Below, in pieces: positions 7,998 to 55,850 of a stretch of DNA of 64,000 bases; the stretch's first letter is position 1; every line of letters starts with the position of its first letter. The position numbers and the translations under genes are program-made. Source of the stretch: the human T2T-CHM13v2.0 reference genome, Homo sapiens; the NCBI RefSeq assembly GCF_009914755.1, contig NC_060942.1; one strand, written 5' to 3'. A model generated the notes under the pieces. It was not told where the DNA came from. It saw nothing but the letters and a program-made list of their open reading frames with translations, and made no database searches.

Positions 7998-8229
7998 TGA
8001 ATTGGCATAAAAATGAAGGTCTGGCAAGAAGATGCCCACTAGTAATTCAAAGGGGCAACAAAACAGTCTGTTCATAGATGCTCAACACCTTTCTTCCCCT
8101 CAGCATCCACGTAGCACTGAAGATTACTAGAAACCGTTGCTCACCATCGAGGCGGTGGCTTGACAGGGTCAGTGGATAGGACAATGACGAGCAGGGTGCA
8201 GCTACCAAGCCCTATATAGAGTGAAATGA

Positions 8230-8470
8230 ACTTGAGCTTTGGAATCAAGCAGCCTGAGTTTGGGTCTTTGCTCCCTCACTAGCTAGGTATGGGATCTTGG
8301 ATGAATTGCTTAACTTTGCCAGGCCTCAGTTTCCCTATCATTAATGCAGCAATAGTAATAATACCTCCTTCGTGGGTCAGAATGGAATGAGATGCTGTGC
8401 GTAGAGCACCTTGGAATGAGATGCTGTGTGTAGAGCACCTTGCATATAAAAGGTGCTTCAAATGACTGCT
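8230..8470 (+). mobile_element. MIR with internal 29-bp tandem duplication
   Basis: gctttggaatcaagcagcctgagttt...gcctcagtttccctatc core; duplication at 8383-8411 / 8412-8440. Confidence 0.75.
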
Positions 8471-8472
8471 AG

Positions 8473-8745
8473 TACAGAATTTTCCAGGTCATCCAGAATT
8501 TTTCAAATTTTCAAATAATAAAATAAAACATAAATCATATACTTGGGCTGAGTGAGTGTGGGGCAGCACTCTATAATAAAACACATTTATATTTCTGTAG
8601 CAAAATATATTCATACTAAATGGAATACATAATATATCCAAATATCAGTTCAGGTCAAATGTCACCAAATGAGTTAGAAAAATTCTTGGTGTTTAGAATT
8701 TTGGAGATTTGGGGATTGTAGGTAAGGGATTGTGGGTCGGAACTA
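8473..8745. mobile_element. probable Tigger-type (TcMar) non-autonomous element
   Basis: Terminal ...ttttggagatttggggattgtaggtaagggattgtggg resembles Tigger-family ends; subfamily uncertain. Confidence 0.4.
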
Positions 8746-18759: not shown

Positions 18760-18980
18760 TAATTATAATAGTAGCAGCTGCTGTTTATTAAGCACCTATT
18801 ATGCTCTGTGAGCTTCACATGCATTATCTCATTTAATTGTTGTTACAACAATGCAAAGTTAGCACACGAAGAAACTGAGGGATACATTATTTGCCCAAGG
18901 TCATGGATTAAGTCTATGGTAGAACTGGGGTTTGAGTCTTTGAGTCTAGGTCTGACTTTATGTTCCAGACCCCTGTCTCT
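18760..18980 (-). mobile_element. MIR
   Basis: tttattaagcacct..., gaagaaactgagg, ttgcccaaggtca core. Confidence 0.7.
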
Positions 18981-19239
18981 AGATCATCTGCTGTCTCTCG
19001 TTGCATGTTTCTCTCAAGATGGGAGGAATCTATGATTCCTCTCAGCTCTTGAGAAAATCCAAGATAGGTAGTAGCTCTTCTTAAAATCCAGCTCCCCTTC
19101 CTTAAGCAGAGTCAGGGCAGGCATGGGAGCTGAAGAAGGAAGGTGCTCTGCTCTCTCCTGCAGGGTGGAAACTGATGGAGACCATCGTAGTTCTGTGCTG
19201 AGAAGACAGGCCACCTGACCGAACATGACCCTCCATTTC

Positions 19240-20881: not shown

Positions 20882-20939
20882 CAGTGAATTGTTACTTAAG
20901 TGTGTCTGCAGGAGCCTGCTTGTAGAGCACATTAGTCAA

Positions 20940-21230
20940 TAATAATAATAGTGATAGCCTGGACAGCAACATTCATTAGCTACTTACTATGTGCCAGGCA
21001 CTGTTCTAAGCTGTTTGTCTATATTAACTCGTTTAATCTTCTTATTATAATAGCTGTATAAGGTAGGTACTGTTAATATTAGCCCCTTTCTAAAAATGAG
21101 AAAATCAAGGCACAAGAACTTGATAACGAGTAGTCTGGCCAAAATTACATCTCTATCTGTAATAAATGGCAGAATTAGCTTTGAACCCAGAGGGTCCAGT
21201 TCCTGTTCCTAAATAGTTAACCACTATACT
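20940..21230 (-). mobile_element. MIR
   Basis: cttactatgtgccaggcactgttctaag...atgagaaaatcaaggcaca...tttgaacccag. Confidence 0.8.
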
Positions 21231-26489: not shown

Positions 26490-26720
26490 AACAGGATTAC
26501 CATTTACTCGGCACCTGATTACCACATGCCAGCCATTTCATGTGGCTTATCTCGGTGTATGATTACACTACCCATAGGCCATAGGTACTATTACTATTTC
26601 CATTTCACAGATGAGTAAGCTAAGGCTTACAGAGGTTAAGGAACTTGCCTCAAGTCACATTCTTAGGAGTAATAGAACCAGTACTGAAATTCGAGCAGCT
26701 GGCCTTAGCGCATGCGCTCA
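26490..26720 (-). mobile_element. MIR
   Basis: ccatttcacagatgagtaagctaaggcttacagaggttaaggaacttgcc core. Confidence 0.78.
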
Positions 26721-29120: not shown

Positions 29121-29820
29121 AGTTATTGGTTGTTTCTGATTGGAAACTAAGTGTGGAAATAAGACCTCTCCAGCTCCTGCGGTTATAAGCTTTGTCCCAT
29201 GTGATAAACAAATCAGACTTTTTTTACGCTGGGAGTAGTTTAATTTTCAACCTCTGCTGCAGGGAAGACTAATCCTTCATTATATTAAGGTAAAAGCAGC
29301 ACTAAGATATTTTAAAGTTTTATTTTTTAAAAGAAAGTTTCACATGAAACATGAACATTTCTCATGAATAAATGCATTATATTGACAAGTTTCATTCTTA
29401 TCATGCAACAAGTTGAACCAGTTACTTTTAATCAAAATAATGTTATGCAAGATTTAATAGTCCAATACTCGACTCAGTTATGTAAACAAACAAGACAAGC
29501 TAAATCCTTTGTAGTCTGCTAGACGTTTTGCTTGGTTGGAATGGATCTCCCACATAAGACACAATCTTTAAATTGAAAAAGGAAGTCCTAGCGATAGCAA
29601 ATATACAAACAAAAAGGAGTGTTAGTTTAAATCCTTATTTAGCTTATCTGAAGTTGCATACAATAAACAGAGTTTCATTGTGTTCCAAACAACTCATATA
29701 TTGCTTCATAAACCTGGTATCTTATTATTCAAGACTTCAGACCAAAAATGAGGTAACAGATTGAGCAAGTTTCTGTTTCATCCATAGAGATATTTAAGGT
29801 GACACTACAAAGAAATTTTG

Positions 29821-30127
<307 letters not shown>

Positions 30128-30470
30128 CTACAAGGGTGACGTTACAAAGAATACATAATTGTAAGGGAAACATCTTCCCCATGGGTATGAATAGTTTTTA
30201 AATTTTTGGAATTAGAGATATACAGATTCTTTTAAAATTGTTATCTAAAATCATTATTGCTCAATAATTTTCTAGCAGGTGAAACAGGCACAAAGTTTAA
30301 CCAGTTGAAATCTGGGTGGTAAAAATGCAGACGAGGGGTTATCTCAAGATCAGCATTCAACTCAAAGGCAGTCCAGTCCAGTGCTTTTTGTGTGTGTTTG
30401 TGTGTGAGTATGCATGCATGTGGGTAAATGATCAAAGACTCTTAATGAGACCTAAGATTTCGAAGTTCTC

Positions 30471-30879
30471 CTAAGCAAGCAAATGTACATGAAGTACCTA
30501 ATGCAATGGCTGGAATATGAAAAGACCTCAAAATGTATGTCAGTCTATGACTCTGCATGGATGGAAATATTGCCTGTCTGTCTGGATACCTCAGATAGAT
30601 TTACTCAAGTCAGGCTTGCATTGCAGCTACAGAAAATTCCAAGCAGTTTTTTGATACCTACCTGATTGCTCTTCTAGTCAACACCCCTTACTGACAAATA
30701 CTTCAGAAGCCACTCTTTCTGGCAGTTCTGGGCTATGCTCAGGGATCACTTGGGGGTCTTAAAAGCTGGGCAGAATCACCCCAAAGCTAAACAATTGAAA
30801 ACAATGTAGGAAAACACAGAGGAGAATGAGTATGGGCTTCTTCCACGTGGGCGAAACAAGACAGTCAAGACAGTCATGA
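30471..30879 (+). repeat. left arm of a non-Alu long inverted repeat
   Basis: Colinear with the reverse complement of 32093-32471, roughly 80-85% identical by eye plus indels; 30-bp perfect block 30838-30867 / 32096-32125. Confidence 0.95.
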
Positions 30880-31021
30880 ATCAAATTTTAAAATCAAATC
30901 TACCAGATTTTGATGTCTTTATGACACATTCTATTACTCAACTTTGGAAAAGAATATCTTGAGTCGTGTGAATAAGCCTAGTACTTGCATTTTGAATGGG
31001 TCCTTCCTTTGGTGTTTACAG

Positions 31022-31190
31022 TTCAGAAACAATAGAGATACCAAACAAGATAAGACTAAGCCACAGAGGTATCTGAAAAGCTGCCATCAATCAAAGCTCT
31101 TTGTGAAGCTGGTTAGTGCAGGTTCCATTGTTCTAAGGAGCAGGCAAAAGGAACAAATAAAATCCAGCTGTTTCTTCATTCTTGCACCAG
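31022..31190 (+). other. candidate exon E4 inside the inverted-repeat spacer
   Basis: Acceptor tccttcctttggtgtttacAG|t; consensus donor CAG|GTGAGT; 169 nt; open in the frame of ORF 30944..31372. Confidence 0.5.
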
Positions 31191-32092
31191 GTGAGTCCCA
31201 GTATCAATACTTCATTCATTGTGGATTAAGGGGAAAGTGGCCTTCATTTCCTTTCTCATTCCATTTTGAAACCTCAGATTTCTTTCTTTCTGCCAATGAT
31301 ACCCAGTTGTTGAGTCATAGCCACCTGGGCTCTAGTTCTGGCATTGCTTGCAATGTCATCATGAGAACCTGATAGATGGTGTTAATAGCAGAGTTTAGAC
31401 TTACTGATCAAGAAAAAAATACTTTTAGATTGCTTACCTTTGGAGGGTTTTGCTATGTTTAAAGAAAGTCAGTTTTTGACACTCAAATTTAATTGACTGT
31501 CCTATATAGCAGTCATTTCACATGATAATTTTTTTCACAAAATAAAGGAATTTAGTGCGCTAAAAGTTTCCTGAATGGTGGGATGTTGATAAAAGTAAAG
31601 TTGTGAATTGGGGGGGTCACGTGAACCAGGATTTAATTGCATTTGTGCCACTTGGTGTTAGACCCTTTCTCTACTCATGTTAACTCTACCTCTGTTGTTC
31701 ATAGTTTCCTTACTCGCAAATTAACATAACTGTGTGATTTTTGTGGACTCTAGAAAAACATCTTGTGGGATGGATTTCTAGATTTAGAAATGCTTTTAGC
31801 ATTTATTAACACCCATAACCTAGGAAATGAAAGTAATAAAAATAATATTTTGGTAAGACAGAAAATCTGTTTTCATTTCTCCTTTTTGATATTTGTAATT
31901 GGTTGGGGCAGAAAGTTCTTTTGTGTTCTTGTGTGGGCATGTATATGCTAATGAATTTGAGATGAGGAGCCACTGTCTTTAAGACAACTCTCCCTTATGA
32001 TGTTTTGCATACATGTATATTCTCTTTCACTCTAGATTCAACTTCGAATAAACACCATGCTCTCAGCCAAGGAAGAGTAAATCTAGCATTAG

Positions 32093-32471
32093 TCATGACT
32101 GTCTTGTTTCGCCCACGTGGAAGAATCTCACATCCATTCGTCTCCGTGTTTCCCTGTATTGTTTTTGATCTTTTAGCTTCGAGAGATTCTTCCCAGCTTC
32201 TAGAACTCCCAAGTGATCCCTGAGCATAGTCCAGAACTACCAGAAAGAGTATTTTTCCAACAAGTTTCCAAAGTATTTGTTGGTATGGGGTGTTGACTAC
32301 AAGAGCAATCAATAACTCTGCTTGGAGTTTTCTATAGCTGTAATGCAAGCCTGACTAATAAATCCAACCGAGGCACCCAGACAGACAGGCAATATTTTCA
32401 TCCATGTGTTGAGGCCTTTGCATATTCTGGACAATGTGGGTTAGGCACTTCACGTACCTTTCTTTGCTTAG
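32093..32471 (-). repeat. right arm of the long inverted repeat
   Basis: Reverse complement of the left arm; outer end runs into a MIR at about 32420-32600. Confidence 0.95.
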
Positions 32472-32598
32472 TCTTCATAACAGCTGAGTGAATCAGGTAA
32501 TATAGTATAGTCTCCACTTTGTTGAGAGTTTAGGTAACTTGCTCAAGACCACTCAAACATTTGCCCCTGGTTCCAAATGCTGCAGTCTTAACTACTTA

Positions 32599-32975
<377 letters not shown>

Positions 32976-35159
32976 CTAAGAAGGAAGATCTGAATTCTTC
33001 TGACATGCCTATGTCATGTATTTTCCAGATAACACCCTCCAAAACCCCGCAAGGTGAAGCTCATGTCATCCAAAACCAAGGCATGAGCCAGAGCCTAAAT
33101 AGAGGAAAGAAAATAGAAGAGAGAATTCTAGCGACATATCTGGTCATCATTCCAAGCAACCTGGCTGAACTTTTGCATCGACAAACAATTTTTTCTTGAG
33201 CATTTTTAAATTTACAAGCTGGTTTTCAACAAAGCTTTTCAAAAAGAAGTCTTTATGATGGCAAATCTTTAAAAGAAATGTGTTTTAGACCAAGAAAGGC
33301 AAACCTTTCATGTCCTGTTTAGTCTCTAGCATGCTTGTTTTCAAAACACAAGCTCCAGTCTGCATGTTTCTGCAGTCAACTGTCTGTCTTAGAAAATATC
33401 TCAAAATCAATCTGTCCCCGTGTTTGCTTATGATTCTGCGGTAATCCTCTGTTTGTAGTCACAAGTTGTCAGGAGAACATCATGTAAGGCATGGTATGAA
33501 GACTTAAGAAATCTTGAAATCAAAAACTTCAATTTTCTTTCTCTTGAAGTGTTTCTAAGGGATGAAAAATGAGAAAGGAAATTAGCATCTACTGTTACCT
33601 CATTTAATTCCTTCAACCATCTTCAGGGTATTATTGTCTCCAAAAAGAAACCAAGGTTCAGAGAAGAGGACTCACTTGCCCTGTGACCTATGACCAGGGG
33701 TCCCACGTTGGGACCCAGAATTCTGACTCGAACCCAGTGCTGGCTCCCCTGTGTCCCAGGGATGGGCAGGATAAGATGTTCTTTAAAACTTTGTTTGTTG
33801 GGCACCTCAAAAAACCCTTATGAATTATTGCTTAAGTTATTTTGGCATAATAACGTCACTAAGTCCATGGAAAATTAAACTTTTAGAATCTCTGTTATAT
33901 GGCTAGATCAATACTAAACTACCCCTTTTTTTCCAAGTCCCTGGAAAAAGTGAAATTATAAGTTTTGACTACATGGGAGGGCTTTGGTGCCTCATACACT
34001 TGCATTAAATGCAGTATCCTTGAAAATAATAGAATATGTATTTGTGAGAGTAAAAATTTATACATGCAGCAGTCCATAAGAGAATTAGATCCAGAAAGTA
34101 CAACTTGAAAGAGTTCTAAACTCTTAGAACAAATTGATTTAAATTTGAATAGTACTGAATATGAATTGATGGAAAGTGAATATTTAGAACCCCCTTTTGT
34201 GAATTTCAGTAAGCTGACATTTGTTAGCTCCTGACGCAGTAGCTTTTCTGAGTCAAGAACTGAAGGTACCTTGAATTACCTGACAGATAATCATACAGAG
34301 ATGTGAAGTCAAATGTCATATTCCATTAAGCCTAATCTGCAGTTGCAGGAAGGGTGGACAATCTTGCCTAAACATTTGACAGATTTGGAATGTCTCTTGC
34401 CATAGACATTTAGCATGAACCAGCTTCATTGTCCTAGTATCTGTCACACAGAAATGGTCCCTTGCTCGGCTTCTAATGGATTTGCTGCAAAGGCTGTGAG
34501 GAATGAGTCACACTCAGGGACACGATGACACAGGAACAGCTTCTACAACACAATCCTCTGCAATAGGGAAAGCTGTGCCTCTCCCCAGGGACCTGCCTAT
34601 AAAGTTGGTCTTCTTTCCACTAAGGAGGCATCCCTGAGAGCCCCCCATAAATTAAGGAGAACTTCTCTAGGTAACTACTAAAAAATAAGGCCAACAAACT
34701 AAATCCTTGGGATATGAAATATTAATGTGATGGGAATTACCTTAATAGGAAACAATTGAGTATACACTGTATTACATAAGTGAGGCTTAAAAAAAAAATA
34801 ACATTGAGTTCCGGGCATTTTTTTTCTTCCTTGGAAAATGCCTTGAAATCTTTTCCATCAACACAGTCTAACAGTACAGGTTATGGGTGACATATAGTTT
34901 CAAGGCAAATTGCAGCTTAGTTGGTCAAACTCTTTCAGTAGGAAAAAAAATGACAATTTGAAAGAGTTCTGGAAGGGCTAACACTAAACAGTTCCATCTT
35001 GACCTCAAACCAACGCAATCTGCAAACAAGTCAATATGTGAACCCAAAGGAAGATTCTGCCCCAGCCTAAGAAAGGGACAACTTTTCCTTCTCTGGAATC
35101 GAAATGTTCCATGAAATTAAATCATTGATTAAAAGCTGGGGAGGCAAAGACTGTTGAAA

Positions 35160-37092: not shown

Positions 37093-37468
<376 letters not shown>

Positions 37469-39699: not shown

Positions 39700-40379
<680 letters not shown>

Positions 40380-41906: not shown

Positions 41907-42806
<900 letters not shown>

Positions 42807-51800: not shown

Positions 51801-52700
51801 GGTGGCACACTCATGTAGTCCCAGCTACTCAGGAGTCGGAGGCAGGAGAATCACTTGAATCCAGGAGAAGAAGAGGTTGCAGTGAGCCAAGATTGCACCA
51901 CTGCACTCCAGCCTCGGCAACAGAGACAGACTCCATCTCAAAAAAAAAAGAAAAGATTGATCAAAGATTCAAATTAAATGTAAGACCTCAAACTATAAAA
52001 ATTCTAGAGGAAAAGCTAGGAAATACCCTTGTTAACATTGGTCTTGGTTATGAATGTATGGCCAAGTGCCCAAACAAGATTGTTACAAAAACAAAACTTG
52101 ACAAGTGGGACCTAATTAAACTTAAGAGCTTCTGCACAGCAAAATAAACCATCAACAGAGTAAACAGACAACCTATAGAAAGGGATAAAATATTCACAAA
52201 CTATGCATCTGACAAAGGTTAATATCCAGAATCTATAAGAACTTTAAACAAATCAACAAGCGAAAGACAAATAACTCCATTAAAAAGTGGGCAAAAGACA
52301 AGAAAAGACACTTCTCAAAAGAAGACATGCTAGTGAACAACAAATATATGAAAAATGCTCATCATCACTAGTAATCAGAGAAGTGCAAATAAAAACCACA
52401 GTGACATTTCATCTCATACCAGTCAGAATGGCGATTGTTAAAAAGACAAAAAACAGCAGATGCTGGCAAGGCTCCAGAGAAAAGGGAAGGCTTATACACT
52501 ATTGGTGAGAATGTAAGTTAGTTCAGCCACTATGGAAAGTAGTGTGGAGATTTCCCAAAGAACTTAAAACGGAGCTACCATTTGACCCAGCAATCCCATT
52601 ACTGGGTATATACTCAAAGGAGTATATGTAGATCATTACACCAAAAAGACGCATGTACTTGTATGTTAATCGCTGTGATACTCGCAATAGCAAAGACATG
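48823..52700 (+). pseudogene. L1 ORF2p (endonuclease/reverse transcriptase) remnant
   Basis: MTG start at 48823; RT motifs IISIDAQKA and [10 protein letters not shown]; [17 protein letters not shown]; many stops; Alu insertion. Confidence 0.9.
51659..51952 (+). mobile_element. AluSc-like inserted in L1 ORF2
   Basis: Exact TSD AAGATTGATCA (51648-51658 / 51953-51963). Confidence 0.95.
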
Positions 52701-55659: not shown

Positions 55660-55850
55660 AGAGCCTACTGTGTAGCAGGCACTGCACCAGGCACTTTGCT
55701 ATGTTTCCTCTTTAAATCTTCTCAGTAACCCTATGAAGGAGGTCTCCTTTTACAGTAGAGACAGCAGAGGTGCCAAGAGATTAAGGAGGTTGCTTAAGGC
55801 CAAGGAGCAAGGACCTGGCAAACTTGAGATGGCTCTTTGGATCTGTACAT
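55660..55850 (-). mobile_element. MIR
   Basis: gagcctactgtgtagcaggcactg...aaccctatgaagg...ttttacag. Confidence 0.65.

What the first reader, a model, noticed from the sequence alone, without database searches (positions are those of the whole stretch)
30471..32471. ~400-bp non-Alu inverted duplication with a 1.2-kb spacer
Seen: 30471-30879 aligns along its full length to the reverse complement of 32093-32471 (about 80-85% by eye, a few indels). Examples are aatattgcctgtctgtctgg / ccagacagacaggcaatatt and ctatgctcagggatcacttggg / cccaagtgatccctgagcatag. The arms are not Alu or L1. The right arm continues into a MIR while the left copy holds only the MIR tail, so the left arm looks like the derived copy. 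Inference: an old local inverted duplication (template-switch/fold-back type) that could form a long pre-mRNA duplex on either strand, or mediate inversion of the 1213-bp spacer.
Basis: partly seen in the sequence, partly recalled or inferred. Interest (0 to 1): 0.8.

Follow-up and report, generated by a model that had tools for sequence, protein, structure and literature searches.

The report
Old non-Alu inverted duplication in intron
A 400-base stretch of human chromosome 18 was copied backwards about 1.2 kb away tens of millions of years ago; the two copies have since drifted apart like junk DNA, so this is a real but ordinary relic.

Summary
30471-30879 is the reverse complement of 32092-32471: 83-84% identity over 366 aligned bases, 7 indels, a 1212-nt spacer, E 1.7e-70 in a whole-genome search.

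It is not a pair of transposon copies. Each arm finds only itself and the other arm in the T2T genome. A control repeat of similar pairwise identity gave 15,824 candidates.

A MIR-like dispersed repeat runs unbroken across the outer end of the right arm. Both arms stop at the same position of a profile built from 62 other copies. So the copied unit is about 300 nt of non-MIR DNA plus a MIR end, and the left arm is the truncated copy. This is a local inverted duplication.

Per-arm divergence (about 0.09) equals that of the median Alu in the window. That suggests very roughly 35-60 Myr, using recalled rates.

RNA from either strand is predicted to fold into a hairpin of about 320 bp. However, transition differences give 23 G:U against 23 A:C, large indels interrupt the arms, and the rate looks neutral, so I see no sign of selection for pairing. 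The longest perfect match is 30 nt, so inversion by recombination is unlikely today.

Low interest: a new member of a known kind.

The parts
30471..30879 (.). Left arm, the derived and truncated copy. Its outer ~70-90 nt (30471 to ~30540) are the end of a MIR-like repeat; 30860-30877 is a 9-nt tandem duplication.
   Evidence: alignment; the reverse complement of the outer 92 nt scores 5.2 bits on the MIR profile at positions 57-129, and 0 of 300 shuffles reach that score. for the 9-nt tandem duplication.
30880..32091 (.). Spacer (loop) of 1212 nt. No similarity to the arms and no transposase remnant.
   Evidence: One search listed 11 stop-to-stop ORFs of at least 40 aa; the 5 longest were scanned against Pfam and none reached significance (best E 0.11, below cut-off).
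31022..31190 (+). Alternative exon of the predicted lncRNA LOC105371972. It lies inside the loop, 143 nt after the left arm and 902 nt before the right arm. It is preceded by ...tttacag and followed by gtgagt.
   Evidence: Hub annotation for the exon; splice-site dinucleotides and context read.
32092..32471 (.). Right arm, the likely source copy. Its outer part (at least 32438-32471) is the end of a MIR-like repeat that continues outside the arm.
32472..32556 (-). Rest of the MIR-like dispersed repeat, contiguous with the right arm and absent beside the left arm. Assigning it to the - strand rests on my recollection of the published consensus orientation.
   Evidence: the 18-mer 32531-32548 with up to 2 mismatches has 1493 genomic matches against 56 for the reversed control; profile hit 32432/32438-32555/6, E 3e-10 in the window.
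30455..30470 (.). Candidate target-site duplication. It matches 30905-30920 at 11 of 16 positions, with an A/T-rich 25 nt in between. Not significant.
   Evidence: empirical p about 0.06 against 5000 random places in the window.

Best explanation
This is a relic of one local inverted duplication. A ~380-nt piece of chromosome 18 was copied in reverse-complement orientation to a point about 1.2 kb upstream. The piece consisted of about 300 nt of non-MIR DNA plus the adjoining end of an old MIR SINE, now at 32092-32471. The copy is now 30471-30879. This happened at about the time the middle-aged Alu elements of the region inserted, very roughly 35-60 million years ago. The likeliest mechanism is a replication or repair template switch. 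The nascent strand left its template at about 30470, copied the opposite strand from 32471 back to 32092, and returned at about 30880. That is the '1-4-3-2' order of the four-point template-switch model, at a larger scale than the events described for that model. Since then both copies have decayed at the neutral rate. Both arms lie in introns of two + strand lncRNAs, so the primary transcript can in principle fold into a ~320-bp imperfect hairpin around a 1.2-kb loop that holds one alternative exon. That would make it a likely ADAR substrate much like the many inverted Alu pairs in the same intron, but nothing indicates it has been kept for that. Shown: the repeat, its uniqueness in the genome, the MIR continuity, the divergence, and the fold prediction. 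Inferred: the mechanism, the date, the direction of copying, and any RNA consequence. The confidence given (0.85) is for 'local inverted duplication decaying neutrally'; for the specific template-switch mechanism it is about 0.45.
For: (1) Only two copies exist. A DNA search of the 3.1-Gb genome with either arm returned 2 candidates, the arm itself and the other arm. A 30-mer shared by both arms, with up to 3 mismatches, occurs only at the two arms, with 0 control hits. As a positive control, a non-Alu repeat at 52080-52623 gave 15,824 first-look candidates; 40 were scored, and all 39 other than the query itself were 82-85% identical. So the search does see families at the arms' level of similarity. 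(2) The arm is a composite that crosses a repeat boundary. The 18-mer at 32531-32548 is dispersed: 1493 matches against 56 for the control. A profile built from 62 other copies, with the repeat region masked out of training, aligns 32438-32555 to profile positions 98-233 at 32.5 bits. Shuffling the 92 nt inside the arm drops this to 20.5 +/- 0.9, and 0 of 300 shuffles reach the real score. The left arm's outer 92 nt alone aligns to positions 57-129 at 5.2 bits, and again 0 of 300 shuffles reach it. Both arms end at profile position ~130. (3) Age. K2P distance between arms is 0.198, or 0.185 without CpG-type changes, which is about 0.092 per arm. The 17 near-full-length Alus of the window lie 0.063-0.224 from their majority consensus, median 0.095. 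(4) Neutral decay. The 46 transitions give 23 G:U and 23 A:C in + strand RNA (the numbers swap on the other strand). There are 7 indel events, including gaps of 22, 12 and 10 nt. (5) Hairpin potential. The minimum-energy fold of 30421-32520 pairs the arms with each other, 319 pairs on + and 329 on -, with longest helices of 34 and 30 bp. Cofold energy is -474 kcal/mol against -202 +/- 5 for 20 shuffles of one arm. (6) The four-point model's 1-4-3-2 type creates an inverted repeat (PMC5453318, passages read).
Against: No outgroup genome could be examined, so the ancestral state (right arm only) and the date are inferred, not seen. No microhomology is visible at either junction (read), though after this much decay none would be expected to survive. 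The described short template-switch events involve tens of bases (PMC5453318, passages), so a 380-nt copy over 1.2 kb is an extrapolation. The right arm's in-arm MIR piece (32380-32471) gave no reportable hit on its own; it counts only as part of the continuous alignment. A later deletion beside the left arm could also explain the truncation, which would leave the direction of copying open. The ~300 nt of non-MIR sequence might itself be part of a very old repeat. The DNA search missed the MIR at 32400-32608, finding only the query itself, so families about 70% alike are invisible to it. The arm profile found nothing in only 188 kb of other sequence. Three arm 18-mers gave forward+reverse against control counts of 317/92, 252/528 and 226/104, and the 22-mer gave 14/11. 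These show no clear excess, but the reversed-pattern control is crude.
Confidence: 0.85

Rival explanations
1. The left arm is an L1-mediated retrocopy. A fragment of an antisense (- strand) transcript covering 32471 to 32092 was reverse-transcribed and inserted 1.2 kb away, leaving a decayed A-rich tail and a target-site duplication.
For: The 16 nt directly before the left arm (30455-30470) match 30905-30920 at 11 of 16 positions, and 4 of the 5 differences are transitions. The 25 nt between the arm end and that match are A/T-rich. Truncation of the copy at one end fits 5' truncation.
Against: The match is not significant (empirical p about 0.06). The intervening 25 nt include T runs and are not a convincing poly(A) (output). 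No AATAAA lies within 30 nt upstream of the would-be 3' end at 32092 on the - strand (read). No - strand transcript is annotated across the right arm: LOC107985176 ends at 32872 (hub annotation).
Confidence: 0.08
2. The arms are the long terminal inverted repeats of a single, very low-copy DNA transposon (for example Mutator-like), and the spacer is its decayed interior.
For: The geometry fits: two ~400-nt inverted arms around 1.2 kb, with only these two copies of the arm sequence in the genome.
Against: The outer end of the right arm lies in the middle of a MIR-like repeat that continues outside it; a transposon terminus cannot do that. No direct repeat flanks the outer ends...GTTCTC before 30471 against TCTTCA... 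after 32471 (read). There is no transposase remnant: the 5 longest of 11 spacer ORFs were scanned against Pfam and none was significant. No other copy exists anywhere in 3.1 Gb.
Confidence: 0.03
3. The arms are two independent insertions of one dispersed repeat family that happen to lie close together in opposite orientation.
For: This is the commonest cause of inverted repeats in human DNA: 23 of the 25 listed inverted pairs in this window are Alu-Alu.
Against: Arms that are 16-17% apart would each lie about 8% from their family consensus, so sister copies should be as similar to the arms as the arms are to each other. None was found, although the same search finds thousands of candidates for a control family at 82-85% identity. 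The arm also contains part of a MIR that is contiguous with flanking DNA.
Confidence: 0.02
4. The origin is the same, but the hairpin is functional. The intronic duplex is kept because it loops out exon 31022-31190 (favouring skipping or back-splicing into a 169-nt circular RNA) or serves as an ADAR-edited dsRNA element.
For: The arms bracket an annotated alternative exon with good splice sites (hub annotation). One annotated isoform skips the exon and the other includes it. The predicted duplex (~320 pairs, longest helix 34 bp, -474 kcal/mol, 1.2-kb loop) resembles the medians reported for edited human dsRNAs: 297 bp, 31 contiguous bp, -411 kcal/mol, 84.7% paired, 2035-nt loop (PMC11838218, Table 1, as seen in passages).
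Against: G:U against A:C is 23:23, there are large indels, and the rate is neutral. The same intron holds many inverted Alu pairs of equal strength, so this hairpin is not special. A review of chr18 lincRNAs, which covers LINC01387 but not LOC105371972, reports none of them in two circRNA databases (PMC10968066, passage). Both host genes are poorly characterised lncRNAs.
Confidence: 0.1

Closest known systems
Template-switch mutations (four-point model, type 1-4-3-2; Loytynoja & Goldman 2017, PMC5453318) and larger replication-based inverted duplications (fold-back / MMBIR; PMC3907307 and PMC10766186, seen only as search listings and abstracts)
   Same: A nearby segment is copied in reverse complement and placed in cis, which creates a new inverted repeat able to form a hairpin. 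[quoted passage not shown]
   Different: The events described for that model are tens of bases long and were found between human and chimpanzee. This copy is ~380 nt, jumped 1.2 kb, and is tens of millions of years old. Its junctions no longer show any microhomology, so the mechanism is inferred from geometry alone. The fold-back inverted duplications of the clinical literature are kilobases to megabases long.
Inverted Alu pairs (IR-Alus) in introns, the main source of long dsRNA and A-to-I editing in human transcripts (PMC11263572, search listing only; PMC11838218, passages)
   Same: Two ~300-400-nt inverted arms about 84% complementary, 1-2 kb apart, inside one transcription unit. Predicted duplex length, longest helix, energy and loop size are close to the medians for edited human dsRNAs.
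   Different: The arms are not members of a repeat family, so each has exactly one possible partner in the genome. They arose by one duplication, not two insertions. Editing was not tested.
Inverted low-copy repeats that mediate inversions by non-allelic homologous recombination
   Same: Inverted arms flanking a unique spacer.
   Different: The arms are short and 16-17% diverged, and the longest perfect match is 30 nt. As I recall, recombination substrates need hundreds of bases of near identity. Inversion was plausible only soon after the duplication.

Membership tests
Pair of copies of one dispersed transposable-element family | Further copies elsewhere in the genome at similar identity | tested here: not met
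   2 candidates each (the arm itself and the other arm); the shared 30-mer with up to 3 mismatches occurs only at the two arms. Control family: 15,824 candidates.
Pair of copies of one dispersed transposable-element family | Arm ends coincide with element ends and do not cut through another repeat | tested here: not met
   A MIR-like profile aligns continuously across 32471, and both arms end at profile position ~130.
DNA transposon with long terminal inverted repeats | Target-site duplication flanking the outer ends | tested here: not met
   By eye...GTTCTC before 30471 and TCTTCA... after 32471, with no direct repeat. No formal scan was run.
DNA transposon with long terminal inverted repeats | Transposase remnant in the interior, or related non-autonomous copies elsewhere | tested here: not met
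   The 5 longest of 11 spacer ORFs have no significant Pfam match. No other copies found.
Template-switch / replication-based local inverted duplication | Reverse-complement copy of a nearby single-copy segment, in cis | tested here: met
Template-switch / replication-based local inverted duplication | Ancestral state without the derived copy in outgroup species | not testable with these tools
   No other mammalian genome is held. Inferred only from the truncated MIR in the left arm.
Template-switch / replication-based local inverted duplication | Microhomology at the switch points | tested here: inconclusive
   None visible at 30470/30471 or 30879/30880 against the source flanks, but with ~9% decay per copy it may have been erased.
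Intronic dsRNA of the inverted-Alu kind (ADAR substrate) | Both arms in one transcript and a long, largely paired duplex | tested here: met
   Both arms lie in introns of LINC01387 and LOC105371972 (hub annotation). The fold gives 319 arm-arm pairs with a longest helix of 34 bp. This is in silico only.
Intronic dsRNA of the inverted-Alu kind (ADAR substrate) | Clusters of A-to-I editing on both arms | not testable with these tools
   No editing database or RNA-seq is at hand.
Inverted repeats that drive exon circularisation | Complementary intronic sequences on both sides of an exon | tested here: met
   Exon 31022-31190 lies between the arms (hub annotation).
Inverted repeats that drive exon circularisation | Observed back-splice junction | not testable with these tools
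   No RNA data available. The review PMC10968066 (passage) found no chr18 lincRNA in two circRNA databases, but it does not cover LOC105371972.
Inversion-mediating inverted low-copy repeats | Long stretch of (near-)perfect identity between arms | tested here: not met
   Longest perfect match is 30 nt and overall identity is 83-84%. The threshold of hundreds of bases is recalled, not taken from a call.

The most novel reading that the evidence does not exclude
A primate-specific, single-partner (non-Alu) 400-nt intronic hairpin that brackets the alternative exon 31022-31190 of an uncharacterised lncRNA. It would control that exon's skipping or its back-splicing into a 169-nt circular RNA, and would be a heavily ADAR-edited non-repeat dsRNA. 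If so, it would be a clean natural case, free of the partner ambiguity of Alu pairs, of a template-switch duplication creating a new RNA-processing element.
Probability: 0.08. Interest if true: 0.45.

Novelty: new member of a known kind. Interest (0 to 1): 0.15.

Why it matters
It matters little in itself. It is a well-delimited example of how a local inverted duplication, rather than two transposon insertions, can create a long hairpin-forming repeat in a human intron. The truncated MIR gives the direction of copying from one genome alone. Each arm has only one possible partner in the genome, so the locus could serve as a simple test case for how a ~16% diverged 400-bp intronic duplex is edited by ADAR or affects use of the exon it encloses. 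Nothing found here suggests a selected function.

Tried and rejected

(2) A sequence-only covariance model of the arms (R1) could not be run on the human genome. On the window it found only the two arms. On the 12 loci picked up by the 22-mer pattern it gave only short matches around the seed. The best, L013, showed no homology beyond the 20-nt seed when realigned: score 16 against a shuffle maximum of 15.

(3) Single-sequence nhmmer with 32380-32620 found no other MIR copy in the window or in those 12 loci, and the whole-genome DNA search with 32400-32608 found only itself. The MIR had to be established through an 18-mer pattern and a profile built from its hits.

(4) An arm profile run with all filters off over 188 kb (the window plus 41 other loci) found no further copy. 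This is too little sequence to exclude an old low-copy family.

(5) Candidate target-site duplication: not significant.

(6) Pfam on spacer ORFs gave nothing. Rfam at E up to 1 over 29500-33500 gave only sub-threshold Alu-related hits outside the arms and one chance hit in the spacer.

(7) Literature: 'LINC01387' gave 10 papers, none about this repeat judging by titles and abstracts plus passages of one. 'LOC105371972' gave 0 papers. A search for the Warburton-type inverted-repeat survey failed on term length and was not repeated.

Full report
**1. The observation**

- The repeat finder reports five collinear inverted blocks between 30556-30871 and 32092-32406, each 39-88 nt and 82-92% complementary.
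- A gapped local alignment joins them into 30471-30871 against the reverse complement of 32092-32471: 308 matches, 58 mismatches (43 transitions, 15 transversions) and 49 gap columns, which is 84% identity over aligned bases.
- A MAFFT alignment of the full arms gives 304 of 366 identical, 46 transitions, 16 transversions, and 7 indel events covering 57 columns.
- The extra 8 nt at the inner end of the left arm (to 30879) come from a 9-nt tandem duplication, 30860-30868 / 30869-30877.
- The spacer is 30880-32091, 1212 nt.
- In searches of the whole 3.1-Gb genome the arm-arm match has E = 1.7e-70 and 6.2e-70, so chance is excluded.

**2. Not Alu**

An Alu query finds 23 Alu-like stretches in the window, none in the arms. 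The repeat finder found 32 inverted pairs within 5 kb and listed the 25 longest. Of those 25, 23 are Alu-Alu and the remaining 2 are pieces of this repeat. Rfam finds SRP/Alu-like sub-threshold matches only at 29822-30103 and 32610-32893.

**3. Not a dispersed family**

Each arm, used as a DNA query against the whole genome, produced exactly 2 first-look candidates: itself and the other arm. The tool warns that it skips very common words and scores only the best candidates, so I ran controls.
- Negative control: the MIR-containing stretch 32400-32608 found only itself. The search is therefore blind to repeats that are only about 70% alike.
- Positive control: the non-Alu repeat at 52080-52623 gave 15,824 candidates. 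Forty were scored, and all 39 other than the query itself were 82-85% identical. Families whose copies are as similar to one another as the two arms are (78% by the tool's count, 83-84% by mine) are therefore found readily.
- Pattern scans do not depend on word filters and agree. A 30-mer identical in both arms, with up to 3 mismatches, occurs only at the two arms, with 0 control hits.
- A 22-mer with up to 3 mismatches gave 14 hits against 11 for the control. The 12 foreign loci showed no homology beyond the seed.
- Three more 18-mers with up to 2 mismatches gave 317/92, 252/528 and 226/104, forward plus reverse against the reversed-pattern control. The MIR core 18-mer gave 1493/56.

Two independent insertions that are 16-17% apart would each be about 8% from their family consensus and would have many equally similar sisters. 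None exists.

**4. The decisive anatomy**

The 18-mer at 32531-32548, just outside the right arm, belongs to a highly dispersed repeat: 1493 genomic matches against 56 for the control. I recognise it from memory as the MIR core; no call supplied that name.

A first profile from 29 of those loci found 14 other copies in the window and hit 32432-32556. I refined it to 62 copies, with 30301-32700 masked out of training. The refined profile gave these results:
- It aligns 32438-32555 to profile positions 98-233 at 32.5 bits, running straight across the arm's outer end at 32471.
- When the 92 nt inside the arm are shuffled, the score falls to 20.5 +/- 0.9, and 0 of 300 shuffles reach 32.5.
- The reverse complement of the left arm's outer 92 nt aligns on its own to positions 57-129 at 5.2 bits. 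Again 0 of 300 shuffles reach it (maximum -4.0).
- Both arms therefore end at profile position ~130.
- One result goes the other way: the right arm's in-arm piece alone (32380-32471) gave no reportable hit.

The duplicated unit is thus about 300 nt of non-MIR DNA plus one end of a MIR. On the right that MIR continues for at least 85 nt more. On the left it stops dead at 30471, where unrelated sequence follows, with a GT-rich microsatellite at about 30388-30425.

A transposon terminus cannot lie in the middle of an older repeat that continues outside it. This excludes the terminal-inverted-repeat reading as well. That reading also lacks a target-site duplication, a transposase remnant (the 5 longest of 11 ORFs scanned, none significant) and any other copy. 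The left arm is the truncated copy and so the derived one. The exception would be a later deletion that removed its outer part, which I cannot exclude.

**5. Age**

The K2P distance between arms is 0.198, or 0.185 after removing 4 CpG-type differences, which is about 0.092 per arm. As an internal clock, the 17 near-full-length Alus of the window lie 0.063-0.224 (non-CpG K2P) from their majority consensus, median 0.095. The duplication is therefore as old as a middle-aged Alu of the region. Using recalled ages for the AluS and AluJ expansions and recalled primate substitution rates, I put it at very roughly 35-60 million years, in early anthropoid primates. That conversion is inference. The mixed-subfamily consensus also inflates the older Alu values.

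**6. Mechanism of origin (inferred)**

The geometry is a reverse-complement copy of 32471 to 32092 placed between about 30470 and 30880. This is the 1-4-3-2 order of the four-point template-switch model, which 'creates an inverted repeat' (PMC5453318, passages). The scale here is 380 nt over 1.2 kb rather than tens of bases. No junction microhomology survives.

A rival is L1-mediated retrocopying of an antisense transcript fragment. The 16 nt before the left arm match 30905-30920 at 11 of 16 positions, with an A/T-rich 25 nt in between. The match is not significant (p about 0.06), the 'tail' contains T runs, and there is no polyadenylation signal or annotated antisense transcript.

**7. What it can do now**

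Both arms lie in introns of the + strand lncRNAs LINC01387 and LOC105371972 (hub annotation).
- The minimum-energy fold of 30421-32520 pairs the arms with each other: 319 pairs on the + strand and 329 on the - strand, with longest uninterrupted helices of 34 and 30 bp.
- Cofolding the arms gives -474 kcal/mol, against -202 +/- 5 with one arm shuffled (20 shuffles).
- These values sit close to the medians reported for edited human dsRNAs: 297 bp, 31 contiguous bp, -411 kcal/mol, 84.7% paired, 2035-nt loop (PMC11838218, Table 1, as seen in passages).

If the intron lives long enough to fold, ADAR editing is the expected consequence. The loop also contains the alternative exon 31022-31190, which has an AG acceptor after a pyrimidine tract and a CAG|GTGAGT donor. 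That is the classic layout for exon looping or back-splicing.

**8. No sign that the pairing is maintained**

- The 46 transitions split 23 G:U to 23 A:C for + strand RNA, and the mirror image for the - strand.
- Indels of 22, 12 and 10 nt interrupt the arms.
- The arms evolve at the Alu (neutral) rate.
- The same intron holds many inverted Alu pairs of equal length and complementarity.
- A review of chr18 lincRNAs found none of them, LINC01387 included, in two circRNA databases (PMC10968066, passage). LOC105371972 is not covered there and appears in no paper.
- The longest perfect identity between arms is 30 nt. From memory, that is far below what homologous recombination needs, so the repeat is unlikely to invert the spacer today.

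**9. Comparison and verdict**

It works like an inverted Alu pair, an intronic hairpin-forming repeat, but it is not one. It arose like a template-switch inverted repeat but is larger and older than the described events. It is one more small inverted segmental duplication. Its one useful feature is that a cut MIR shows the direction of copying without an outgroup.

No paper on this repeat was found. It may be listed in the unread supplements of PMC11838218.

Novelty: a new member of a known kind. Interest: low (0.15).

Confidence: about 0.85 that this is a local inverted duplication decaying neutrally, and about 0.45 for the specific template-switch mechanism.

Noticed in passing
window 52080-52623: A non-Alu dispersed repeat of about 540 nt. 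A whole-genome DNA search gave 15,824 first-look candidates. Forty were scored, and all 39 other than the query itself were 82-85% identical over nearly the full length. It looks like a middle-aged, high-copy family (LTR-like size). It was used only as a positive control and was not identified.
   Followed up: no
window, 14 places (e.g. 20923-21211, 26543-26714, 18777-19037, 8229-8488, 55660-55831): MIR-like copies detected with the profile built from 29 genomic loci. 39716-39804 (-) and 39826-39980 (+) lie next to each other in opposite orientation.
   Followed up: no
window 20581-42795: A dense set of inverted Alu pairs within 5 kb of each other in the same lncRNA introns, for example 37205-37463 / 40020-40278 (85%) and 40025-40266 / 42545-42786 (88%). 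These are at least as good dsRNA formers as the repeat under study.
   Followed up: partly
window 30388-30425: A GT-rich, (GT)n-like microsatellite followed by (GCAT)-like repeats, about 45 nt upstream of the left arm's outer junction. Such tracts can stall replication, so it might be relevant to a template switch. This was not tested.
   Followed up: no
window 30022-30081, 32812-32871, 29954-30005, 32744-32795, 29872-29932: Sub-threshold Rfam matches to mir-3135, mir-1268 and mir-1285 inside the two Alus that flank the structure. All are below the gathering scores, as expected for Alu-derived miRNA families.
   Followed up: no
window 30860-30877: A 9-nt tandem duplication (GACAGTCAA / GACAGTCAT) at the inner end of the left arm. 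It is absent from the right arm, so it arose after the duplication.
   Followed up: yes
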